A DNA stretch of 41,835 nucleotides, taken from the IMG/VR virus record IMGVR_UViG_3300045988_111952. One strand, 5' to 3'. The notes beneath the pieces were generated by a model. It was not told the DNA's origin, made no database searches, and saw nothing but the letters and a program-made list of their open reading frames with translations. Shown piece after piece: positions 15,563-27,182 of this stretch; within the stretch, counting starts at the first letter, position 1; every line of letters starts with the position of its first letter. Origin of the DNA: a virus. A program made the translations under genes and the position numbers.

Positions 15563-16678
15563 ATGGCTAGAGCAAAAGCGCGGGCCGATGGGCTGATTGA
15601 ACGAACAAAAACCTATGACGGTAAGCGGGTACACTTTTACGGCAAGACCGCGAAAGAGGTCGCCGCGAAAATTGACGAGTACGAACGCCAGCGGGAAGCG
15701 GTAAAAGAGAATGGCCCGCTATTTGAGGATGTGGCCGGCGAATGGTGGGAGACCCATTTAAAAAATATCAAGGCCGGCGCAGAAAGAGCCTACAAGGGAA
15801 GCTACAAGGCAGCGCTGGAAGAGTTTAGCGGGTACCGCATGAAAGAGATAACCCCTGCTGTGGTGTCGCTGTGGGGCGAGAAATACAAGGCCGCAGGCTA
15901 TGCAGGGAAGACGGCAAGCAACGCCCGGAGCGTGTTGTCTTGTGTGTTCAAGTTTTGGTGCGTCCGGGATGGCGAAACATACAACCCGGTGGCAGTTACG
16001 GATTTGCCGCGAGGAATGAAAAAGGAGCGCCGGGAGCCGCCCACGGTGGAACAGCTGGAAACGGTCAAGGCACACCCGGAGGGGTTCGGGCTGTGTGCTT
16101 GGCTATTCATGTACACCGGCTGCAGGTTGGGCGAGGTGCTGGCGCTGCAATGGGGGGATGTGGATTTTGAGAAAAACAGAATCAGCATTTCCAAAGAAGT
16201 GGCGTGGATAAACAATCAGCCGGTTGTGCAAGCGCCGAAAACCGCAAACGGAGTGCGCGTTGTGCCGCTGTTGACGCCGCTGCGGGCCGTGCTAGAGCCG
16301 TTACGCGGGGCAGATAGTGAATATATACTCGGAGGGGAAAGACCGCTGACAGGAACGGCGTATCAGCACAGATGGGCCTACTATTGCAGAGATGTGGGCA
16401 TGGCACACTGCACCGTGCAGACGAGGAAGAACAAACATAGGGGCAAGGTGTACGATACGGCGGTAAAGGTGTGGAAAGCAGATGTCACGGCGCATCAGTT
16501 CCGGCACGAATACGCCAGCATGTTATATGCGGCGGGCATTGGCGAGCTGGAAGCGCAGCGCCTTATGGGGCACGCTGACATCACGACAACACGGCGAGTA
16601 TATACACATATCCGAGAACGCCAGCTCGATACAGCAGGAGCAGCACTGGAAAAATTTATAAACGATAAAACGATATAA
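15563..16678 (+). CDS. int: Tyrosine recombinase / phage integrase
   Basis: AGGAGG RBS. C-terminal catalytic stretch HQFRHEYASMLYAAGI...LMGHADITTTRRVYTHI (R..H-x-x-R..H..Y). Confidence 0.95.
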   Translation: MARAKARADGLIERTKTYDGKRVHFYGKTAKEVAAKIDEYERQREAVKENGPLFEDVAGEWWETHLKNIKAGAERAYKGSYKAALEEFSGYRMKEITPAVVSLWGEKYKAAGYAGKTASNARSVLSCVFKFWCVRDGETYNPVAVTDLPRGMKKERREPPTVEQLETVKAHPEGFGLCAWLFMYTGCRLGEVLALQWGDVDFEKNRISISKEVAWINNQPVVQAPKTANGVRVVPLLTPLRAVLEPLRGADSEYILGGERPLTGTAYQHRWAYYCRDVGMAHCTVQTRKNKHRGKVYDTAVKVWKADVTAHQFRHEYASMLYAAGIGELEAQRLMGHADITTTRRVYTHIRERQLDTAGAALEKFINDKTI

Positions 16679-17542: not shown

Positions 17543-17613
17543 GTGTATTGACTCCTTTCAGATTTTGGGTTATGGGGCGGGGCTGCTTTACGCTGTGCAG
17601 CCCTGCGAGAGTT

Positions 17614-18081
17614 TCAGAGACGGACAAGTCCGTAATAGTAGTGGCGCAGGCCATCAGCGACAAAGGCCATATACAAGAGGTTGCCGGCCTCGTCTTGGCT
17701 ATAAGGCTCCGTCATCACATAGCCACGTTTCCAGTCGCTGCGCAGGTCGCGGGGCAGCTTGCAAGTCGGGGCGCGGTTTAACATCTCGTTGTAAACTTCC
17801 GCCGTGATTGCTTGGCCCTTGTGCGGGCGCAGCGTTCCGTCTCGGTGCCAGTCGGCGCGGGTGTAGGTGTCGGCAGTGGGCCGGCCGGCGGCCAGGTCGC
17901 AGTAGTGGTTGAACATCAGGCGGGCGTCCTCCGGGTCGTGGGTGTGGTAGCACTCAATTTCCCGACCGTCGGGGTACATGGCCATTACTTCGATATAGCC
18001 ATATTCGGCGGTGAGGTCTGCCGCGTCGATGATGATCTTGCGGCCCTGCCAAGTGGTTTCGGTGTGGTGTAGGGTTTTCAT
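17614..18081 (-). CDS. Hypothetical protein (155 aa)
   Basis: AAAGGAG RBS. Operon context. Confidence 0.75.
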   Translation of the reverse strand: MKTLHHTETTWQGRKIIIDAADLTAEYGYIEVMAMYPDGREIECYHTHDPEDARLMFNHYCDLAAGRPTADTYTRADWHRDGTLRPHKGQAITAEVYNEMLNRAPTCKLPRDLRSDWKRGYVMTEPYSQDEAGNLLYMAFVADGLRHYYYGLVRL

Positions 18082-18860: not shown

Positions 18861-18890
18861 GTGGGTACTATACAAAAGGAGGTGCGCAGA

Positions 18891-19091
18891 ATGTCCAGCG
18901 ATGCAAAGCGGGCCGGGAATGCGCGGTATTTGGCAAAGCTCAAAACCATTACAGTTAGGATGCAGCCGGAAGCGGCGGAAACTATCCAGCAGGCAGCAGC
19001 AGCAGCCGGGGAGAGCGTGAACGGCTATATTTTGGCGGCAGTAGATGCGAGGCTGCAACGAGAAAATCACGATAAACCGAAAAACACTTGA
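18891..19091 (+). CDS. Ribbon-helix-helix (Arc/CopG-like) DNA-binding protein
   Basis: AAAGGAGG RBS before the ATG at 18891. YLAKLKTITVRMQPEAAETIQQAAAAAGESVNGYILAAV fits a beta-strand plus two-helix RHH layout. Confidence 0.7.
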   Translation: MSSDAKRAGNARYLAKLKTITVRMQPEAAETIQQAAAAAGESVNGYILAAVDARLQRENHDKPKNT

Positions 19092-19116
19092 CAAAATCGC
19101 ACTTGCGTAGTAAAAT
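19088..19116 (+). promoter_or_regulatory. Promoter upstream of terS (TTGACA-17-TAAAAT), candidate late promoter
   Basis: TTGACA at 19088..19093, 17-nt spacer, TAAAAT at 19111..19116. Overlaps the stop codon of the RHH gene. Confidence 0.65.
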
Positions 19117-19120
19117 GTGT

Positions 19121-19244
19121 ATAATGAGCGAACCACGCGAGGAAGCGAGCTTCCGCGGCGGGGCTCACTCATTATACAGTTTTAACGTGTCAACGCGAAA
19201 AATCAGGTTTCGGGCGTCCAGCTTTACCGCTGGGCGCTTTTTTT
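19121..19244 (+). ncRNA. Structured leader / short terminated transcript (about 120 nt) preceding terS
   Basis: ataatgag (19121..19128) pairs with ctcattat (19168..19175), enclosing the hairpin cgc-ggaagc-ga-gcttcc-gcg. An intrinsic terminator follows at 19214..19244. Confidence 0.5.
19214..19244 (+). terminator. Intrinsic terminator between the late promoter and terS
   Basis: gcgtccagc-tttacc-gctgggcgc (one G-U pair) followed by T7, 26 nt before the terS ATG. Confidence 0.75.
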
Positions 19245-19269: not shown

Positions 19270-19836
19270 ATGGCAGAAAAGAAGGCGGCGCAGGCCGTCC
19301 AGCTTGGAGAAGTGACCCGCAAGGCAATTGCAGGAGTCGAAAAGGCCAGGCAAGCAGCAGAACGCGGTGAACTCGTAGATAAGCGCGGCAACAGGATGAA
19401 CCCGGCCAGCATTGCGAATCTGCGACCAGGTACAGCAATAAAGGATATGGAACCCGAGCGGAAGCGGGAAATTCAGCAGGCAGGGCAGAAGGCCAGCGTT
19501 GAAGCCCAGAAGAAGCGCCGAACGATTAAGGAAATATATAGCGACCTGCTACAGCAACCGGACAGTGTGGGAGGGCTGGAAGATGAGGAGCTAGCACAGA
19601 CTGTCCAAGAGATGGCACAGCAGAGGGGAAAGCCGATAACTTTATATGAATCAATCGCGATTGCGATGGCGGCGAAAGCGAAGGCCGGAGACGTCAAAGC
19701 GGCGGTGTTTGTGCGGGATTCTGCCGGCGATAAACCGGCTGACCAGATGGAAATTACAGCCGAAGCGGTGACAGATGCGGATAGAGAATTGATGCAGAAT
19801 ATCCAGAAGCGGTTGCAAAAGAACGGTAACGCGTGA
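19270..19836 (+). CDS. terS: Terminase small subunit (putative)
   Basis: AAAGGAGG RBS. Basic helical N-terminus, NLRPG motif, ...AAVFVRDSAGDKP... The size and position upstream of terL are typical of Firmicute-phage TerS. Confidence 0.65.
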   Translation: MAEKKAAQAVQLGEVTRKAIAGVEKARQAAERGELVDKRGNRMNPASIANLRPGTAIKDMEPERKREIQQAGQKASVEAQKKRRTIKEIYSDLLQQPDSVGGLEDEELAQTVQEMAQQRGKPITLYESIAIAMAAKAKAGDVKAAVFVRDSAGDKPADQMEITAEAVTDADRELMQNIQKRLQKNGNA

Positions 19837-20374
19837 ATTTGCGGTTCGCTAAATAGGTATTTAGCGAAATAGTGGCCAGCAGCAGCGCGGCAGCAGGCGG
19901 AAACCGGGGCGGGAACGGTGTAGAGCAGGTGGAGCCGGACGGAGCCTGCAGAAACCGGAAACCGGGGACGGGCTGTAGATGAAGAAGGCCCGGGCGGGGG
20001 TATTTTTTTGCGGCTGTCTGCCGGGAGAGGGAAGGCGGCAGCAGGGCAGGGGGGGGACCCCCCTATAAAGGGGAGGGCGGGGCTCATAGGTAGCGCGGCC
20101 CGGTACGAATATGTCCATTCCCCCAGCGAACATAAAAATAAATTCTCTCCCATGCCACAAATATCCATGCAAAATGAAAGAAAACACGGGATTGTATCAC
20201 AAGCAAGAAGCAAGAGTACATATCCCCCCTATGAGGGAACTATACCCTGAATAGCAAAGGTTCCCTAAAAAAATAAAATTTTGAAATTTTGAGTTTCACG
20301 GTGCGGAGACAGTACCTCCTACTGCTTATGGGACTAGGGCCGTCCGCTTCAAGACCCAGCGGCCACAATACAAA

Positions 20375-20402
20375 GCGTTCTGCTACGGCAGGGCGCTTTT
20401 TT
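20375..20402 (+). terminator. Intrinsic terminator inside the non-coding region
   Basis: gcgttctgc-tacg-gcagggcgc followed by T6. Shares the 14-mer ctgctacggcaggg with the terminator at 25231. Confidence 0.65.
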
Positions 20403-20496
20403 ATTTGCAGAATAAACCCGCGAGGTGCGGGAACGGTTTGCTAAACCGATTGGCCGCCGGTGGCGGCTGGGGTTCGCGTCCTCTGTTCTGCGCCAT

Positions 20497-20578
20497 ACAC
20501 AACATGGGAGCCGGTTCGTCTAATAGGAAGGACGCGCGATACAAGGGTTCGAGTCCCTTACGGGTTGCCATGTTGTGT
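20497..20578 (+). ncRNA. tRNA-like module 1: long closing stem + D-arm + 8-nt linker + T-arm, no anticodon arm
   Basis: acacaacatgg pairs with ccatgttgtgt. D-arm cgtc-taataggaag-gacg. Linker cgcgatac. T-arm aaggg-ttcgagt-ccctt. Confidence 0.5.
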
Positions 20579-20774
20579 GTTTTATATGCTGCATAGCCAG
20601 CCGCAAACTTGGCCTGACAAGTCAATACGGCAAGGGCGCTGCGTTCCGCAAGCTACGGCGTGGCAAAGGTGCAAGACCTATGTGCAGTACCAGACGGCAG
20701 GGTCGCAACCTGTCTGTGTGAGAGTGCGCGGTATACCTCACAAATGATGACAATGGTCGTGCAAACGGCAAGCC

Positions 20775-20843
20775 GCACATGCCCTTGTAGCTCAATGGCA
20801 AGAGCCTTGGAGTGCCGGTTCAAGTCCGGCTGAGGGCATGTGC
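20775..20843 (+). ncRNA. tRNA-like module 2: long closing stem + D-arm + 8-nt linker + T-arm, no anticodon arm
   Basis: gcacatgccc pairs with gggcatgtgc. ta; D-arm gctc-aatggcaa-gagc. Linker cttggagt. T-arm gccgg-ttcaagt-ccggc. Confidence 0.55.
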
Positions 20844-21204
20844 TGGGTCGCTCCCACCGGTGAAAGCCCGGCGCAGGCAAAACGCGATAGCTAACCTAAA
20901 CGCTGTAAGCAAAGCGGCAAAGCCGATCAGGAGCGCGGCGCGATGGCAAGACGCAACGGGACTGCGAGAGCCTGAAAACTTTTGCCCGCACAGTGAAGTG
21001 CGAAAAAAACTTCAACCGCGGATAGGGGCGCGGGTATAAATACCGCCGAACACCGCAGGACTGTGCGGTATACAAATGACGCCCGCCAGCCCTGTGCGGA
21101 CAATACAGGGAATCAAAAAAAGCGTTGCGGACTTGCTCCCCGCAACGGGTGAGACCGGCATAGCAGAGACCGGTAGGGCGGGTATGGGGAATTTGGGAGT
21201 TTCT

Positions 21205-21330
21205 ATGTTGGTACTTTGTGTAATTGTGGCATACCTGTTGAAAATGCCGTTTTTGTGGGCCGCGCTTTTGCTATGTTGCGGCTTTTTGGACGACAATATT
21301 ATTTTTGCGTTTGCAAACAAGAAAAAGTAG
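21205..21330 (+). CDS. Possible small hydrophobic peptide (41 aa)
   Basis: GGGAG 5 nt before the ATG. MLVLCVIVAYLLKMPFLWAALLLCCGF is TM-like. Weak support. Confidence 0.25.
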   Translation: MLVLCVIVAYLLKMPFLWAALLLCCGFLDDNIIFAFANKKK

Positions 21331-21341
21331 GGCGGGGTGAT

Positions 21342-22835
21342 GTGTTGACGCTGGAAGAGATGCGGGAGCTTGAGCGCGAGGCGTGCAGGAAAGACCCGGT
21401 GTATTTTTGCGAAACATATTGCCACATTGAGGACAAGGACGCAGACGAGCTGATACAACCGTTTAGGCTGTGGGATGGGCAAAAGAAAGCACTGGTCGTG
21501 TTTGCCGAGAACCGGCTTGTTTGCGTGCTGAAAGCGCGCCAGTTGGGATTTACATGGCTGGCGCTGGCAGAGGTGGCGCGGCTTGTGGCGCTGAACACAG
21601 GCCGTACTGCGATTGGCTTGAGCCGGTCAGAGGACGAGGCTAAAGAGCTTGTGCGCCGCCTTGCGGTGATACTGCGGTACATGCCGGGGCTTATCCGAGA
21701 GGTGGACACGCCGGCCGGCAACGTTGCAGGCTGGACAGGGCCGGTATTCTACAAAAGCACAATGCAGGTGGTTGTGATGTGGCCGGACGGCCCGGAGAGC
21801 GTGTTTAAGGCGTTTCCGTCAAGCCCTGCTGCAGGCCGTTCGTTTACCGCTGACTTGATCGTGATAGACGAATGGGCGTTCCAGCAGTACGCGGAGGAAA
21901 TCTGGCAGGCTGCATACCCGGTTATCAACCGACCGTTCGGCGGGCGGGTCATCGGGTTGTCAACCATCAAGCTTGGCACGCTGTTTGAGGAAATCTACAC
22001 AAACCCCGGCAACGGTTTTGCAAAGCTGTTTTTGCCGTGGAGCACAGACCCGCGCCGCAGTGAGAAGTGGTACGCACAGACTGTCGCCGCGCTGGGCGAG
22101 GATAAAACGATGCAGGAGTACCCTGCAACAGAAGAAGAAGCGCTCTCCGCCCCCGGAGGGCGCTTCTTTAGTGAGCTTGACAAAGATACCCACTTGGTCG
22201 ATGCGCCGCCCACAGGGCCGCTAAGGCGCTATGTGACGATTGACTATGGCCTTGATATGCTGGCGGCGCTTTGGATTGCTGTTGACACGCAGGGCCATGC
22301 AACGGTGTACCGGGTGGACGGCGGACCGAACAAGACGATAGGTGAAGCGGCAGACTTGATTTTACGAGACTCTGCCGAGGAAGAAATAGACATGTATCTT
22401 GCACCGCCTGACCTGTGGAACCGAAGTCAGGAGAGCGGCAAGAGCCGCGCACAGCTGTTCAGCGAGGCGGGATTGCCGTTGGTGCAGAGTTCCCGAGACT
22501 TCCCGGCAGGATGCGCGGCTATGAAACAATGGCTGCGCAAGGACGAGAAAACCGGGAAAGGGTATCTGACCTTTTACAAGCCGGGCGAGCTGTGGACGTG
22601 CCTGACGAAGATACAGAAGGATGATAAAAACCCTGATGTGTATGCGAAGAACCCGCACGGCCTGACGCATTACCCGGACGCATTACGCTATTTTTGCGTT
22701 TGGTGGACAAGCCCGGCGAAAAAACCTGTGAATATACGAAAGCGGCCGTGGACGGCTGACATGTACGAGGATTACAAAAACGCAAGCCCGAAAGACCGCA
22801 AAATGCTGATTGAGAAATGGGGGAGCCCTGCATGA
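21342..22835 (+). CDS. terL: Terminase large subunit
   Basis: Walker-B-like DLIVIDEWAF. C-terminal nuclease-like half. The start is uncertain (GTG 21342, TTG 21345 or ATG 21360). The track ORF from 21216 is probably too long. Confidence 0.85.
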   Translation: MLTLEEMRELEREACRKDPVYFCETYCHIEDKDADELIQPFRLWDGQKKALVVFAENRLVCVLKARQLGFTWLALAEVARLVALNTGRTAIGLSRSEDEAKELVRRLAVILRYMPGLIREVDTPAGNVAGWTGPVFYKSTMQVVVMWPDGPESVFKAFPSSPAAGRSFTADLIVIDEWAFQQYAEEIWQAAYPVINRPFGGRVIGLSTIKLGTLFEEIYTNPGNGFAKLFLPWSTDPRRSEKWYAQTVAALGEDKTMQEYPATEEEALSAPGGRFFSELDKDTHLVDAPPTGPLRRYVTIDYGLDMLAALWIAVDTQGHATVYRVDGGPNKTIGEAADLILRDSAEEEIDMYLAPPDLWNRSQESGKSRAQLFSEAGLPLVQSSRDFPAGCAAMKQWLRKDEKTGKGYLTFYKPGELWTCLTKIQKDDKNPDVYAKNPHGLTHYPDALRYFCVWWTSPAKKPVNIRKRPWTADMYEDYKNASPKDRKMLIEKWGSPA

Positions 22836-24002: not shown

Positions 24003-25004
24003 ATGGCAGTTATTTTTAGCAAGGCAAGCGGCCTTGCCAATGATTTTTGGAATGAGTGGGCTGACCTGCTCACCATGAAAATGAAGGACACCGACAACGA
24101 GAAGAACAACGATGACGAGCTTGTCAATGCGCTGTTCAATGTCAAGAAGTCCAAGCGTTTCGGCGAGAAGATCGCGGGCATGTCCACCTTCTCCAACTTT
24201 GAGCTTGTGGATGAGGGCGCAAGCTCCCCGCTGGACGATTTCGGCGAGAGTGAGCCGAAGCTGATTGAGCACAATGAGTTCAAGAAGGCGTTCCGCATCA
24301 CCAAGACGATGATCGAGGACAACCAGTTCGATATGGCTGCTGCCCGCTCTGCCGCTAATGTGCGTGCCTACAAGCGCAGCCGTGCAGAGTTTGGCAGCAA
24401 GGCACTGACCAGCGCCGCTGCAACATTTACCTACGGCAAGAAAACCGGGCTGGATTCCACCACCGCTGACGGCAAAGCGCTGTTTGCAAAAGACCACACC
24501 GGCAAGACCGGCGTTGCCGCACAGTCGAATGTGTTCACCAACGCTTTCGGCGATGACGATGCCATGTTGAACCGCCTTGCCAACATCGGTTTCAACTTCA
24601 AAAACGCATCCGGCAACGGCATGGGCTATGTGTTCGACACGCTGATTGTGCCCTCCAACTGCTACCGCTTGATCACGCTGGGCAAGAAGATCATCAACTC
24701 TGACCAGCAGGTGGGCAGCAACTACAACGATGTGAACGTCAACAAGGGCATGTGGAAGCTGGTGGTTGACCACCATTGGCAGGCCACTGACGGAACAGAA
24801 CCCTATATCCTGATGTCCAGTCAAGCCAACAAGGATCTGCTGGGCAATGTGTTCTATGACCGCACCGCGCTGGAGACCTTCCAGAATGTGGACACCCTGA
24901 CGCAGGATCTGATCACGTCCTGCCGAGCCCGTTTCAGCTGCGGCTTTGGTGATTGGCGGCACGTTATTTTGGGCGGCGCTGCTGCTGGTACTACCCTGAC
25001 CTAA
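24003..25004 (+). CDS. Major capsid protein (putative HK97-fold)
   Basis: AAAGGAG RBS. 333 aa. Follows the scaffold gene, with composition typical of an MCP. Call based on position and size. Confidence 0.7.
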   Translation: MAVIFSKASGLANDFWNEWADLLTMKMKDTDNEKNNDDELVNALFNVKKSKRFGEKIAGMSTFSNFELVDEGASSPLDDFGESEPKLIEHNEFKKAFRITKTMIEDNQFDMAAARSAANVRAYKRSRAEFGSKALTSAAATFTYGKKTGLDSTTADGKALFAKDHTGKTGVAAQSNVFTNAFGDDDAMLNRLANIGFNFKNASGNGMGYVFDTLIVPSNCYRLITLGKKIINSDQQVGSNYNDVNVNKGMWKLVVDHHWQATDGTEPYILMSSQANKDLLGNVFYDRTALETFQNVDTLTQDLITSCRARFSCGFGDWRHVILGGAAAGTTLT

Positions 25005-25298: not shown

Positions 25299-27182
25299 AT
25301 GAAGAAAGACGATAAGCAGACAAAAGACCTTGAAAAATGGCAGGGCAAGCTATCCAACGCGAAAGCTGCATACAGTGACACGCTGGAAAAGATGCGCAAG
25401 CGTGAGGCCATGTACTACGGCAGCCACGAGATACAGGGTGCCAAAAAGAACGCCACGAATGTGCGCAATATCATCTATGAGCTGATTGAAAGTCAGGTGG
25501 ATTCCAGCTACCCGATGCCGAAGGTCACAGCCATCCATGCGGAAGACCGGGACTTAGCGCGAAAGACCGAAAACATGCTGCGCAATCAGGCACGGCGGAT
25601 GCGGTTTATTGAACTGAATGACCGAAGCGAACGAACAGTGCCGGTGCAGGGCGCGGACTTTTTCCATGTGGAGTGGAACCCGGTTGCGGGGTATCACTGC
25701 ACGCTGGGCGATGTTGAAGTAGAGATGCGCCACCCACGGCAGGTCATTCCGCAGCCGGGTGTGTACCGCATTGAGGATATGGATTATATCTTTGTGCAGG
25801 TCTCAAAGAGCAAGGATTCGCTGGAAGCGCGGTACGGCATTACTATTGAGACCGACACAGAGGACGCGCCGGACGCGCGCGGGGGCGATGACAGCACCCA
25901 CACAGGCGTTGTGACGCAGAACATTGTCTATTACAAGCACGACAAGGGCACAGTAGGCATGTTTAGCTGGGTAGGGTGTCAGGTACTTGAAGATTTCCCC
26001 GATTATTATGCGCGCACGGCAGAGGTTTGCACGAAATGCGGACGGCGGCGCGTGGGGGATGTATGTGTTTGCGGGAACAAGAAGTTCAAAGAACAGCCGG
26101 TGCAGACCCTTACGCTGACACAGGATGTAGTGCTTAGCAGCGGTGAGGTGCTGCCTGCACAGATGATGGGCGAGGATGTGCCCATTGTGAACCCGGACGG
26201 CAGTGTACAGCTTGACAACGAGAGCGGCGAGGTCATTATGATGCCGGGCGAGATGCAGGCCAACGAGATACCGGCCTACAAACCGCATGGTTTCCCGATT
26301 GTGGAGCGGATAAACATTGCGGCATCGGACAAGTTTTTGGGCGTGTCGGATGTAGATATCATCGCTGACCAGCAGCAGGCTATCAACAAATACGGCACAA
26401 AGATTCAGGAAAAGCTGCTGAAAGGCGGCAGTTGGGTAGTGCTGCCGGAGGGCGTAAACGCGGAGCTGAACGATAACGAGCTGAAAATTTTGCGCGTGGA
26501 CAACCCGAGCCAGAAAGCCATGATCGATGTTATCAATGTGCAGCCCAATGTGCAGAACGACCAGAACATGCTGGAAATGAATTACACTTGGGCGAAATCC
26601 ACTTTGGGCATTACGGACGCATTCCAAGGCAAGTACGATTCTTCCGCTACATCGGGCAGTGCGAAGCAGTTCAGCGCGAACCAGAGCGCAGGCCGTTTGC
26701 AGAGCAAGCGCGAAATGAAGAACAACGCCTATGCGAAGCTGTACCGCATGATGTTTGAGTTTTTGCTGGCGTATGCCGATGAGCCGTACCCGATGACCGA
26801 GACAGACACGGACGGTGAACAGCAGTTCGGGCATTTTGACAGGATGGAGTTTTTGAAGCGGGACGCAGCCGGGGAATTGTACTGGAACGATGAATTTATC
26901 ATTGAGGTAGACCCGGCAAGTAACCTTGCAAGCAACCGCGAGCGGCTGTGGGACATGGTCGATTTGAAGTATCAGGCGGGCGGTTTTGGCAACATTACCG
27001 AGCCTATAAGCCAGTACCGGCTGTGGACTTACCTGAAAGAGACCGGATTCCCGTATGCAGCCACAATGCAGAAATCCATCAAAGAGGAGATGGACAGACA
27101 GGAAGCTATGCAGCAGGGGGTGATTGCAAATGACATGGCAAGAAATCAAGTTGGCAACCTTGCAGAAAATGTTCAGCTCTGA
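25299..27182 (+). CDS. Portal protein (putative), with an internal CxxC...CxC insertion
   Basis: 627 aa, GGAG RBS. Lies next to the adaptor and capsid genes. N-terminal region ...YYGSHEI...NVRNIIYELIESQVD... is portal-like. Function from context. Confidence 0.6.
   Translation: MKKDDKQTKDLEKWQGKLSNAKAAYSDTLEKMRKREAMYYGSHEIQGAKKNATNVRNIIYELIESQVDSSYPMPKVTAIHAEDRDLARKTENMLRNQARRMRFIELNDRSERTVPVQGADFFHVEWNPVAGYHCTLGDVEVEMRHPRQVIPQPGVYRIEDMDYIFVQVSKSKDSLEARYGITIETDTEDAPDARGGDDSTHTGVVTQNIVYYKHDKGTVGMFSWVGCQVLEDFPDYYARTAEVCTKCGRRRVGDVCVCGNKKFKEQPVQTLTLTQDVVLSSGEVLPAQMMGEDVPIVNPDGSVQLDNESGEVIMMPGEMQANEIPAYKPHGFPIVERINIAASDKFLGVSDVDIIADQQQAINKYGTKIQEKLLKGGSWVVLPEGVNAELNDNELKILRVDNPSQKAMIDVINVQPNVQNDQNMLEMNYTWAKSTLGITDAFQGKYDSSATSGSAKQFSANQSAGRLQSKREMKNNAYAKLYRMMFEFLLAYADEPYPMTETDTDGEQQFGHFDRMEFLKRDAAGELYWNDEFIIEVDPASNLASNRERLWDMVDLKYQAGGFGNITEPISQYRLWTYLKETGFPYAATMQKSIKEEMDRQEAMQQGVIANDMARNQVGNLAENVQL

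What the first reader, a model, noticed from the sequence alone, without database searches (positions are those of the whole stretch)
19837..21341. 1.5 kb without credible ORFs between terS and terL: candidate large structured ncRNA locus
terS and terL are normally adjacent. Here they are separated by about 1.5 kb in which every track ORF looks spurious: no RBS, Pro/Arg/Gly/Cys-rich junk composition, and overlap on both strands.

The DNA itself is rich in structure signals:
- A perfect 10-bp hairpin directly after terS (tcgctaaata/tatttagcga, 19847..19868).
- G-rich direct repeats (ggaaaccggggcggg at 19899..19913 versus ggaaaccggggacggg at 19957..19972, each followed by a tgtaga motif), and a G8-A-C6 hairpin near 20050.
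- A plus-strand intrinsic terminator at 20375..20402.
- Two tRNA-like modules.
- Many GC-rich stems separated by A-runs. Examples: cgcac-agtgaa-gtgcg near 20987, ccctgt/acaggg near 21090, cgttgcgg/ccgcaacg 21122..21147, and accgg/ccggt near 21154..21174.

The large ornate ncRNA classes GOLLD and ROOL are known mainly from Firmicutes and metagenomes. They often sit in prophages and next to, or containing, tRNA sequences. This locus is a plausible member of one of those classes, or of a new class. I cannot confirm that from memory of their consensus. The G-rich repeats next to terS could alternatively be a pac/TerS-binding site.
Basis: partly seen in the sequence, partly recalled or inferred. 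Interest (0 to 1): 0.8.

Follow-up and report, generated by a model that had tools for sequence, protein, structure and literature searches.

The report
Modular RNA leader before phage terminase
The 1.4 kb gap before the large terminase gene of this gut (Gemmiger-type) prophage is not one giant RNA but a string of small structured RNAs (an unusual serine tRNA, anticodon-less tRNA look-alikes, two undescribed conserved RNA domains and the known D12-methyl motif), and the core of this string recurs at the head of the DNA-packaging operon in about 89 distinct variants from gut-phage contigs with unrelated terminases.

Summary
19837-21206 has no credible ORF and is packed with conserved structure. 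Only a 41-aa hydrophobic ORF (21207-21330) at the 3' end looks real.

The GOLLD/ROOL interpretation fails: Rfam gives no hit even at E<=10. The region is instead a mosaic of independent modules that come and go among phages with 94-99% identical TerL.
- A sequence-invariant 24-nt palindrome plus G-rich repeats.
- An AT-rich stretch followed by a hairpin RNA with a CCUCC loop, ending in an intrinsic terminator.
- An (8/4) 'allo'-tRNA-Ser(GCU).
- Two tRNA-like elements that keep acceptor, D and T arms but lack the anticodon arm.
- M3, a new 105-nt four-way-junction RNA ending in ACCA, with strong covariation.
- F, a new ~150-nt hairpin-rich domain.
- The Rfam D12-methyl motif (86 bits) next to the ribosome-binding site.

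The order M3 < F < D12-methyl held in all 118 loci compared. In other phages the same cassette sits directly upstream of terS(GP3)-terL(Terminase_3), or of a DNA methyltransferase that precedes them.

Best reading (inferred): it is a co-transcribed, RNase P/Z-processed leader of the packaging operon. This is a new variant of known kinds. Interest is moderate to high.

The parts
19270..19836 (+). The identity is positional only.
   Evidence: No Pfam hit. The only PHROG hit is phrog_2412, of unknown function. Homologues are unannotated. The fold search is inconclusive. The homologue is adjacent to or overlaps terL in L051 and L079.
19845..19868 (.). 24-nt perfect palindrome TTCGCTAAATA-GG-TATTTAGCGAA. 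Probably a DNA protein-binding site.
   Evidence: Arms are 100% complementary. The sequence is almost invariant (rare single substitutions) across 26 distinct relatives while the flanks diverge. A 2-nt loop is implausible for an RNA hairpin.
19890..19972 (+). Variable-copy G/A-rich direct repeats (GGAAACCGGGG type).
   Evidence: Repeat family D1, 58-nt spacing. Copy number and sequence vary between relatives.
20049..20142 (+). Conserved 3' part of module A: G8-A-C6 hairpin, a CCCCCC-TATAAA-GGGG box, GTACGAATATG and TTCCCCCAG blocks.
   Evidence: Invariant blocks in the alignment of 26 distinct sequences. This part is more conserved (87%) than the upstream ORF (71%) in L028.
20143..20295 (+). 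Module B: AT-rich (38% GC) stretch with a second CCCCCCTATGAGGG box. Candidate promoter region for module C.
   Evidence: Composition. Present in 24 loci. Variant loci carry an extended -10, TGATATAAAG, immediately upstream of C. No clear sigma-70 site is found in the window itself.
20296..20405 (+). Module C: hairpin 20310-20324 with covarying stem and conserved CCUCC loop, hairpin 20338-20364, and intrinsic terminator 20372-20403.
   Evidence: Present in 33 loci. At least four different stem sequences surround the same CCUCC loop. The second hairpin shows C-G to U-A changes. The terminator scan hits here. Fold z = -2.7.
20407..20495 (+). M1: (8/4) allo-type tRNA-Ser(GCU) with encoded CCA (20493-20495).
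   Evidence: ARAGORN call. Scores 41.6 bits on the tRNA-Sec model, below its gathering score of 47. It has an 8-bp acceptor, a 4-bp T stem, a 5-bp D stem and a long variable arm, with compensatory changes across 13 variants. The kind is described in PMC5389517.
20497..20580 (+). M2: tRNA-like element with a T arm AAGGG-UUCGAGU-CCCUU and a D-like arm, closed by a 12-bp stem, with no anticodon arm.
   Evidence: Fold z = -4.1, with 0 of 200 shuffles as stable. Inverted repeat I1. Found in only 5 relatives, always directly after M1 and nearly identical, so there is no covariation test.
20588..20692 (+). M3: new four-way-junction RNA. It has an 8-bp acceptor-like stem, a length-variable arm I, arm II, a 4-bp arm III with loop GCAAG, and an invariant 3' ACCA.
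   Evidence: 57 distinct sequences are 98.5% paired versus 25-46% for slid controls, with 8 pairs changed on both sides. Covariance model R1 scores 122.5 bits here. Conserved G-U pairs fix the strand. There is no Rfam hit at E<=10. The motif occurs in at least 119 viral contigs.
20693..20780 (+). M4: spacer module of three hairpins.
   Evidence: Present in 8 loci of the clade and many others. Compensatory changes occur in all three hairpins.
20781..20838 (+). M5: 58-nt tRNA-like element with a canonical acceptor (7 bp), D arm (A14, G18, G19) and T arm (UUCAAGU). The anticodon arm is replaced by about 7 nt, and no CCA is encoded.
   Evidence: Rfam tRNA, 41.9 bits against a gathering score of 29, with 18 model positions replaced by 3 nt. 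It is the commonest module directly upstream of F. L014 shows a T-stem C-G to U-A change.
20842..20992 (+). F: new conserved ~150-nt domain. It has five short hairpins followed by a 7-bp stem (GGCAxxx/xxxUGCC) that encloses a further hairpin.
   Evidence: Present in 33 of about 35 clade loci and 129 loci overall. Compensatory changes occur in H1, H2, H3, H4 and the 7-bp stem. No credible Rfam hit: only a 20-bit, E=0.07 group II intron fragment (RF02003, gathering score 49) overlaps 20854-20961.
20993..21122 (+). G: variable hairpin mosaic, including a hairpin 21027-21047 whose loop carries CGGGUAUAAAU.
   Evidence: 75 distinct G variants are built from shared hairpins with different stems around GGG(A)UAUAAAU loops. 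The motif occurs 55 times in 37.5 kb of F..D12 versus once in 875 kb outside.
21123..21186 (+). D12-methyl RNA motif (RF02950). Its G-rich 3' tail AGGGCGGG precedes the downstream ribosome-binding site and start codon.
   Evidence: 86.4 bits against a gathering score of 57. Both hairpins are 98% paired, with compensatory A-U/G-C and C-G/U-A changes in 40 variants. It is present upstream of terL in every relative of the >=85% clade that was tested.
21207..21330 (+). Optional 41-aa hydrophobic ORF (MLVLCVIVAYLLKMPFLW...) with ribosome-binding site GGGAG at 21196-21200.
   Evidence: Homologues are 76-98% identical with conservative changes. It is present in only 3 related loci. The insertion is flanked by GTAGGGCGGG at 21173-21182 and 21327-21336.
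21342..22835 (+). terL (start GTG 21342 or TTG 21345).
   Evidence: phrog_2 terminase large subunit, E = 1.4e-24. Terminase_6N is weak. About 25% identity to T4-type TerL of isolated phages.

Best explanation
The spacer is a composite, modular RNA leader at the head of the packaging/late genes of a temperate Gemmiger-type phage. It is not a single large ncRNA.

Shown:
- It consists of independently exchangeable modules on the + strand.
- A fixed core runs M3 ... (one or more tRNA or tRNA-like modules) ... F ... G hairpins ... D12-methyl.
- The same core sits directly upstream of the first gene of the packaging operon in phages with unrelated terminases.

Inferred mechanism:
1. Transcription starts in the AT-rich module B and meets the module C terminator. 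This resembles a lambda PR'-6S-tR' type check-point. Alternatively, C is a separate small RNA with an anti-Shine-Dalgarno CCUCC loop.
2. Read-through RNA carries the tRNA and tRNA-like modules. Each is preceded by a GC hairpin and a U-rich leader with U at -1. Host RNase P and RNase Z, or exonucleases, cut them out.
3. Cutting releases an (8/4) tRNA-Ser, the ACCA-ended M3 RNA and the anticodon-less mimics.
4. Cutting also creates the 5' end of the terminase mRNA at the first hairpin of F. This is a mascRNA/MALAT1-like 'tRNA punctuation' that leaves a stabilising 5' stem-loop.
5. The F-G-D12-methyl stretch then acts as a long cis-regulatory 5' UTR. In the Terminase_3 phages D12-methyl is followed by a CCUCC-loop hairpin and an intrinsic terminator (attenuation). 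In this window it abuts the ribosome-binding site (translational control).
For: Modularity.
- blastn blocks share junctions.
- Core modules A, C, F and D12 occur in 33-34 loci. Variable modules occur in 3-24 loci.
- The tRNA complement varies among relatives: Ser, Asp, Trp, Thr, Gln and an odd 'His'.
- Spacer length grows from -14 nt to 2359 nt across the TerL tree.

RNA structure, + strand.
- M3 covariation and conserved G-U pairs.
- Compensatory changes in F, C and M4.
- D12.

Fixed order and context.
- M3 < F < D12 in 118 of 118 loci, spanning 434-1367 nt and 89 distinct cassettes.
- 80-98% nucleotide identity to the window in contigs with no detectable TerL similarity.
- In L125 and L159 the cassette ends about 55 nt before terS(GP3_package)-terL(Terminase_3)-SPP1 portal.
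- Elsewhere the first gene is a D12-class or a ParB-N6_N4 methyltransferase, followed by terS-terL.

Processing idea.
- F is abutted by a tRNA or tRNA-like 3' end in about 85% of 52 distinct contexts.
- M5 keeps every tRNA tertiary-contact position but has no anticodon arm.
- Leaders end in U(-1).

Attenuator idea.
- D12 is followed by a hairpin and the terminator GCCUACAC-AAAU-GUGUGGGC-U5 in the other phage group.

Host.
- The same prophage type is found in a Gemmiger sp. MAG.
Against: - There are no expression data. Transcript ends, processing and any regulation are all inferred.
- No convincing sigma-70 promoter is found in the window's module B.
- The hairpin plus U tract before each module could equally be a terminator, an RNase P leader or part of a promoter.
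- F and D12 are so conserved in sequence that covariation support is thinner than for M3.
- M2 has no comparative support.
- In this clade the cassette lies after the putative terS rather than before the first packaging gene. So 'head of the operon' is literally true only for the other phages.
- Much of the identity between phages may reflect recent recombination rather than selection.
Confidence: 0.6

Rival explanations
1. M3-...-F-G-D12-methyl is one large (0.45-1.4 kb) modular ncRNA of a new class. It would be functionally comparable to GOLLD/ROOL, with tRNA modules embedded in a variable region, and would act as a single particle.
For: - The order is invariant in 118 of 118 loci.
- In the Terminase_3 phages the cassette is bracketed by terminator-like hairpins.
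- It moves as a unit between unrelated phages.
- GOLLD and ROOL are likewise prophage-borne and tRNA-adjacent (PMC5737381).
- A possible long-range stem joins 20982-20993 to 21092-21103.
Against: - Modules are swapped, deleted or duplicated between near-identical phages.
- The M3-to-F distance varies from 146 to 939 nt.
- All supported pairs are local.
- There is no Rfam similarity to any large RNA.
- D12-methyl abuts a ribosome-binding site or terminator, as a cis element would.
Confidence: 0.2
2. The tRNA and tRNA-like array is an accessory counter-defence or translation-support island. It would supply tRNAs or acceptor-end decoys against host tRNA-targeting toxins, and would merely be lodged in the leader with no role in terminase expression.
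For: - Module content is hypervariable among close relatives.
- Mimics keep the acceptor, T and D arms but lack the anticodon.
- M3 has an invariant ACCA end.
- Irregular tRNA polycistrons linked to toxin-antitoxin loci are described in PMC5389517.
- From my own knowledge: phage tRNAs are known to evade anticodon nucleases.
Against: - F is almost always directly abutted by a tRNA-like 3' end, and M3 always comes first. This suggests a structural role within the leader.
- No defence or toxin gene was identified nearby.
- This reading is not exclusive of the best explanation.
Confidence: 0.3
3. The region, or at least 19845-20142, is a DNA-level packaging signal (pac / TerS recognition) or another protein-binding control region, not RNA.
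For: - The 24-nt palindrome is invariant in sequence.
- The repeats vary in copy number.
- The location is next to the putative terS.
- GC-flanked TATAAA boxes recur.
Against: - For 20296-21190, stems change by compensatory substitutions around conserved loops, and G-U pairs are strand-specific.
- The cassette is shared by phages with unrelated TerS proteins.
- Nothing here tests DNA ends.
Confidence: 0.25
4. The spacer is a member of GOLLD, ROOL or another known large RNA, or it hides a protein-coding gene.
For: Only the context (prophage, tRNA-adjacent) supports this. One real small ORF lies at 21207-21330.
Against: - No such Rfam hit at E<=10.
- ORFs 19473-20213(-), 20008-20250(+) and 21076-21330(+) have no Pfam or PHROG hit.
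- Alignments are full of indels that are not multiples of three.
Confidence: 0.03

Closest known systems
D12-methyl RNA motif (Rfam RF02950; Weinberg et al. 2017, PMC5737381)
   Same: Window 21123-21186 is a full-length, high-scoring member (86.4 bits) with both hairpins supported. In some related contigs it does precede a D12-class methyltransferase.
   Different: - Here it precedes a small ORF and terL. In 48 other loci it precedes terS.
- It is always the last piece of a much larger conserved cassette (M3...F...G).
- In one phage group it is followed by a terminator.
- The association is therefore with the start of the packaging operon, not with methylases. The family description is recalled from memory, because the paper's supplement was not available.
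(8/4) allo-tRNAs and polycistrons of irregular tRNAs (Mukai et al. 2017, PMC5389517)
   Same: M1 has an 8-bp acceptor, a 4-bp T stem, a long D stem, a long variable arm, a Ser anticodon and a near-threshold tRNA-Sec model score. (8/4) tRNA-Ser was reported from phages and Clostridia.
   Different: M2, M3 and M5 have no anticodon loop at all. The array is embedded in a terminase leader rather than in a stand-alone tRNA cluster.
GOLLD and ROOL large ornate RNAs
   Same: They share the prophage context and the proximity to tRNAs.
   Different: There is no sequence or structure-model similarity. The locus is modular and made of local hairpins, with no evidence of one fold.
MALAT1-mascRNA / mitochondrial 'tRNA punctuation' (own knowledge)
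   Same: A tRNA-like element without decoding function sits exactly at the boundary of a longer RNA. RNase P/Z could define that RNA's end there.
   Different: The system is bacterial and phage-borne. Processing has not been shown. The element lies upstream of an mRNA rather than at a 3' end.
Lambda PR'-6S RNA-tR' late leader and nut/put antitermination sites (own knowledge)
   Same: There is a promoter-proximal structured RNA ending in a terminator upstream of late genes (module C). In other phages a terminator lies between D12 and terS. Hairpins with a conserved loop recur.
   Different: No antiterminator protein has been identified, there is no sequence similarity, and the leader is 5-10 times longer and carries tRNA modules.
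HDV-like theta ribozymes next to phage tRNAs (Kienbeck et al. 2024, PMC10879173)
   Same: F starts within a few nucleotides of a tRNA or tRNA-like 3' end in gut phages.
   Different: The candidate P1 pairing of F is contradicted by compensatory changes that support the local hairpins H1 and H2. No HDV-family Rfam hit is found.

Membership tests
GOLLD / ROOL (and raiA, HEARO, OLE, tmRNA, Y-RNA-like, group I/II introns) | Match to the family covariance model | tested here: not met
   cmscan of 19700-21450, both strands, E<=10: none of these families matched. The only related hit is a 20.3-bit group-II-D1D4-4 fragment (gathering score 49, E = 0.07).
GOLLD / ROOL | One large conserved multi-stem architecture | tested here: not met
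   Modules are independently present or absent. The M3-F distance is 146-939 nt. All supported pairs are local.
D12-methyl RNA (RF02950) | Score above the gathering threshold over the full model | tested here: met
   86.4 bits against 57, model positions 1-64 of 64.
D12-methyl RNA (RF02950) | Two hairpins maintained by covariation | tested here: met
   98.4% and 98.5% paired in 40 variants. There are 3 pairs with double changes in hairpin 2 and 1 in hairpin 1.
D12-methyl RNA (RF02950) | Located upstream of a D12-class DNA methyltransferase gene (feature recalled from memory) | tested here: not met
   In the window the downstream genes are a 41-aa ORF and terL. In related loci the downstream gene is terL (55), terS (48), ParB-N6_N4 or D12 methyltransferases, or portal (25).
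Canonical tRNA (RF00005) | Cloverleaf with anticodon arm | tested here: not met
   - M5: 18 model positions, the anticodon arm, are replaced by 3 nt.
- M2 and M3: no tRNA-model hit at E<=10.
- M1 meets this feature. See the allo-tRNA rows.
(8/4) allo-tRNA-Ser (PMC5389517) | 8-bp acceptor + 4-bp T stem, long D stem with short loop, long variable arm, Ser anticodon | tested here: met
   Consensus fold of 13 M1 variants, with compensatory changes in the variable arm and T stem. Anticodon GCU. tRNA-Sec-like score of 41.6 bits.
(8/4) allo-tRNA-Ser | Aminoacylation with serine and use in translation | not testable with these tools
   Needs a biochemical assay.
tRNA-like processing signal (mascRNA-type) | Acceptor/T-arm mimic retained and anticodon function lost | tested here: met
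   M5 keeps the 7-bp acceptor, U8, A14, G18, G19 and the T loop UUCAAGU.
tRNA-like processing signal (mascRNA-type) | Cleavage by RNase P / RNase Z at its ends | not testable with these tools
   Only indirect evidence: U at -1, no encoded CCA in M5, and F starting 1-5 nt after the discriminator.
HDV-like theta ribozyme | Nested double-pseudoknot with P1 formed by the first 7 nt | tested here: not met
   The candidate P1 (F positions 1-7 with 25-31) is broken in L012, L025 and L179. The competing hairpins H1 and H2 are kept there by compensatory changes.
Terminase small subunit (for ORF 19270-19836) | Sequence or fold similarity to a known TerS family | tested here: inconclusive
   No Pfam hit. 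No PDB profile hit. Foldseek gives DUF5681 and TerS entries only at E>0.1, on a model with pLDDT 69.5.

The most novel reading that the evidence does not exclude
The M3-tRNA-like-F-G-D12-methyl cassette is a horizontally exchanged RNA control module of phage late/packaging operons. Either it is a new class of large modular ncRNA, or it is an RNA-based antitermination and processing device whose recurrent GGGAUAUAAAU-loop and CCUCC-loop hairpins recruit a factor. In that reading M3 and the anticodon-less tRNA mimics are functional RNAs, such as decoys or processing handles, rather than decayed tRNA genes.
Probability: 0.25. Interest if true: 0.8.

Novelty: new variant of a known kind. Interest (0 to 1): 0.62.

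Why it matters
The result re-contextualises an orphan Rfam motif. D12-methyl turns out to be the 3' end of a 0.45-1.4 kb conserved RNA cassette. The cassette marks the start of the packaging operon, whatever its first gene is (methyltransferase, terS, terL).

It adds two well-supported but undescribed RNA domains, M3 and F. It also adds a family of anticodon-less tRNA mimics, present in at least 119 gut-phage contigs.

If the processing/leader model is right, it is a bacterial-virus example of tRNA-like punctuation used to shape and control late mRNAs. It would also show a regulatory RNA module shared by recombination among unrelated phages of one host group (Gemmiger and other Oscillospiraceae). 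The hypothesis is directly testable by induction RNA-seq.

Tried and rejected
- GOLLD, ROOL and other large-RNA membership: rejected. There are no Rfam hits at E<=10.
- Protein-coding explanation for 19837-21206: rejected. The ORFs have no family hits and the alignments contain frame-breaking indels.
- F as an HDV-like theta ribozyme abutting tRNAs: rejected on covariation (paper read).
- M3 as a true tRNA: rejected. It has no anticodon loop, a 5-nt 'T' loop, and no tRNA-model hit.
- Proving terS identity: inconclusive. The profile search against PDB found nothing. AF2 plus Foldseek was also inconclusive.
- Similar DNA in isolated phage genomes: none found. The closest isolate TerL is only about 25% identical.
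- Literature searches: no description found. Searches for D12-methyl text, tRNA-like + RNase P + terminase, and GOLLD/ROOL + terminase found nothing that describes this cassette. The Weinberg 2017 supplement was not available.
- Kissing-loop pseudoknot inside D12-methyl (UUGCU with AGCA): left open. It is compatible with the data but rests on a single compensatory event.
- Sigma-70 promoter in module B of the window: none convincing. An extended -10 appears only in variant loci.
- Extended acceptor stem of M5 (20775-20843): rejected as a conserved feature. It is specific to this window.
Full report
**1. What is in the window**

The window looks like a complete temperate phage genome.
- It encodes an integrase (15563-16678), a capsid protein (24003-25004) and a P22-like portal (25299-27182).
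- ORF 21342/21345-22835 is a large terminase: phrog_2, E = 1e-24, with a weak Terminase_6N match.
All its homologues are unannotated, and the predicted fold is inconclusive.
- Its homologue abuts or overlaps terL in the most distant relatives, so TerS is plausible but not shown.
- Between the two genes no ORF has any family support. The exception is a 41-aa hydrophobic ORF at 21207-21330. It has a GGGAG ribosome-binding site and homologues that differ by conservative substitutions.

**2. Check of the listed features**

All are real.
- The palindrome at 19845-19868.
- The 58-nt-spaced G-rich repeats.
- The G8-A-C6 run.
- The terminator at 20372-20399.
- The tRNA-like modules.
- The stems near 21122-21174. 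These are the two hairpins of the Rfam D12-methyl motif, 21123-21186, 86.4 bits against a gathering score of 57.

A permissive Rfam scan of 19700-21450 (E<=10, both strands) found no GOLLD, ROOL, raiA, HEARO, OLE, tmRNA, Y-RNA or credible intron match.

**3. Comparative anatomy within the TerL clade**

Seventy-nine related viral loci were fetched through TerL, spanning 48-99% identity.

The terS-terL distance varies with TerL relatedness:

| Relatives | Distance |
|---|---|
| Most distant | -14 to 19 nt |
| Intermediate clades | 330-1140 nt |
| Clade with >=85% TerL identity | 1076-2359 nt |

Within that last clade the window's spacer aligns as a mosaic of blocks with shared junctions.

A module census separates two groups:

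| Group | Module (window coordinates) | Loci |
|---|---|---|
| Core | A (19837-20142) | 34 |
| Core | C (20296-20405) | 33 |
| Core | F (20841-20992) | 33 |
| Core | D12-methyl | 34 |
| Variable | B | 24 |
| Variable | M1, tRNA-Ser | 14 |
| Variable | M2 | 5 |
| Variable | M3 | 23 |
| Variable | M4 | 8 |
| Variable | M5 | 14 |
| Variable | G | 11 |
| Variable | small ORF | 3 |

Relatives carry other tRNAs in the same slots: Asp, Trp, Thr, Gln and an odd 84-nt 'His'. A single large folded RNA would not tolerate this turnover. An array of small units does.

**4. The modules**

*M1 (20407-20495)*
- It is a tRNA-Ser(GCU) with an 8-bp acceptor stem, a 4-bp T stem, a 5-bp D stem, a long variable arm and an encoded CCA.
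- It scores just under threshold on the tRNA-Sec model.
- This is the (8/4) allo-tRNA-Ser architecture that Mukai et al. found in phages and Clostridia (PMC5389517).

*M5 (20781-20838)*
- It retains a canonical acceptor stem, D arm and T arm, with all the usual tertiary-contact nucleotides.
- The anticodon arm is replaced by a short linker.

*M2 (20497-20580)*
- It has the same three-way layout as M5 and is closed by a 12-bp stem. Its fold z-score is -4.1.
- It has too few variants for covariation.

*M3 (20588-20692)*
- It is not in Rfam.
- It is a four-way junction with an 8-bp acceptor-like stem, an arm I that ranges from a 3-bp stub to about 60 nt, a 9-bp arm II and a 4-bp arm III with loop GCAAG.
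- It has an invariant 3' ACCA.
- Across 57 distinct sequences, 98.5% of cells are paired, against 25-46% for slid controls.
- Eight pairs carry changes on both sides. Conserved G-U pairs fix the + strand.

*F (20842-20992)*
- It is a conserved domain of five short hairpins plus a 7-bp stem that encloses another hairpin.
- Compensatory changes occur in H1-H4 and in the 7-bp stem.

*G*
- It is a mosaic of hairpins with different stems around a common loop, CGGG(A)UAUAAAU.
- The loop motif is about 30-fold or more enriched in F..D12 relative to the rest of the loci. That enrichment is partly due to shared ancestry.

*C*
- It has a 5' hairpin whose stem differs in at least four ways around a constant CCUCC (anti-Shine-Dalgarno-like) loop.
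- A second covarying hairpin and an intrinsic terminator follow.
- Variant loci carry an extended -10 (TGATATAAAG) just upstream.

*A*
- Its 24-nt palindrome is almost invariant in sequence, and its repeats vary in copy number.
- This looks like a DNA-level protein site.

**5. The cassette outside the clade**

About 105 of the fetched loci carry M3.
- About 70 contigs have no detectable similarity to the window's TerL. In these the whole stretch 20580-21182 is nevertheless conserved at 80-98% identity.
- Across all loci the order M3 < F < D12 held in 118 of 118. The span is 434-1367 nt, with 89 distinct cassette sequences.
- F is directly abutted by a tRNA or tRNA-like 3' end in about 85% of 52 distinct contexts.
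- Each module is preceded by a small GC hairpin plus UUUUAU(A/U)U, which places U at -1.

Gene contexts downstream of the cassette:
- In L125 and L159 it ends about 55 nt before terS (GP3_package), followed by terL (Terminase_3) and an SPP1-type portal.
- In others the first downstream gene is a D12-class methyltransferase or a ParB-N6_N4 methyltransferase, followed by terS-terL. This explains the Rfam name.
- In these phages D12-methyl is followed by a CCUCC-loop hairpin, a GGGGGAUAUAAG box and a strong intrinsic terminator just before the ribosome-binding site.
- In the window's clade it is followed directly by the ribosome-binding site of terL or of a small optional ORF.

A Gemmiger sp. MAG carries a prophage of the window's clade, with terS at 77% and terL at 83% identity. 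This points to the host group. No isolated phage has similar DNA.

**6. Interpretation**

Shown:
- a + strand array of structured RNA modules;
- a conserved core cassette, of which D12-methyl is the 3' end;
- a constant position of that cassette at the head of packaging genes of unrelated phages.

Inferred:
- The cassette is co-transcribed with the packaging genes.
- The tRNA and tRNA-like modules are excised by RNase P/Z.
- This excision defines the 5' end of the terminase mRNA at the first hairpin of F.
- F-G-D12 is a cis-regulatory 5' UTR. It would act by attenuation where a terminator follows, and by translational control where the ribosome-binding site follows.
- Module C is a promoter-proximal terminated leader or a small RNA.

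Rivals not excluded:
- a single large modular ncRNA of a new class;
- a counter-defence or translation-support role for the tRNA mimics;
- a DNA-level pac or operator role for the palindrome and repeat part of module A.

**7. Comparison with known systems, and novelty**

- D12-methyl membership is met on score and structure, but not on the methylase context.
- M1 fits the (8/4) allo-tRNA-Ser kind.
- GOLLD/ROOL and theta-ribozyme memberships were tested and not met.
- M3, F and the composite cassette were not found in Rfam 15 or in the searchable literature.

I rate this a new variant of known kinds: a phage tRNA polycistron combined with a cis-regulatory leader. Interest is moderate to high. 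There is a 0.25 chance that it is a new modular RNA control device.

Noticed in passing
window 17566-17618 (-): RAGATH-5 RNA (RF02685) hit just above threshold, 52.1 bits against 50. The same motif occurs in L004. Relatives with 65% TerL identity carry twister-sister (L035, L041) and pistol (L033) ribozymes on the early-gene strand.
   Followed up: no
window 19845-19868: A 24-nt perfect palindrome right after the stop codon of the 188-aa gene. Its sequence is almost invariant in 26 distinct relatives while the flanks diverge. It may be an operator or a TerS site.
   Followed up: partly
window 20058-20073, 20224-20237, 21031-21043: Recurrent GC-flanked TATAAA-type boxes: CCCCCC-TATAAA-GGGG, CCCCCC-TATGAG-GG, and CGGG-TATAAAT in a hairpin loop. 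The loop form is strongly enriched between F and D12 in all cassettes.
   Followed up: partly
window 21133-21137 with 21162-21165 (D12-methyl loops): Loop 1 UUGCU and loop 2 AGCA are complementary in 37-39 of 40 variants. One compensatory U-A to C-G change occurs in L125. This may be a kissing-loop pseudoknot that is absent from the Rfam structure shown. In L181 the top of hairpin 1 is inverted.
   Followed up: partly
window 21173-21182 and 21327-21336: The direct repeat GTAGGGCGGG flanks the 41-aa ORF insertion. Most relatives have a different small ORF (MDCRFDFEIYG...) or none in this slot between D12-methyl and terL.
   Followed up: partly
window 19088-19116 and 19212-19239: A near-consensus sigma-70 promoter-like site (TTGACA-17-TAAAAT) and a terminator-like hairpin lie upstream of the 188-aa gene. 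They follow a small RHH (Arc/TacA-like) ORF at 18861-19091.
   Followed up: no
L179 9158-9271; L007/L009/L013/L016/L019/L021/L032 near window position 20370: L179 carries a second, divergent M3-like copy (36.9 bits). Several relatives carry an insertion of about 290 nt just before the module C terminator.
   Followed up: no
L098, L164, L107 and others; L173, L108: ParB_N-N6_N4 DNA methylase fusions, ParB_N-only proteins, or D12-class methyltransferases form an optional first gene between the cassette and terS-terL. L173 and L108 have long SLQ/RLQ repeat tracts inside the D12 methylase.
   Followed up: partly
L214 (Gemmiger sp. MAG CAKSUQ010000001.1): The only hit in the species-representative genome collection. 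It is a prophage of the same clade with the same spacer modules, which indicates the host genus.
   Followed up: partly
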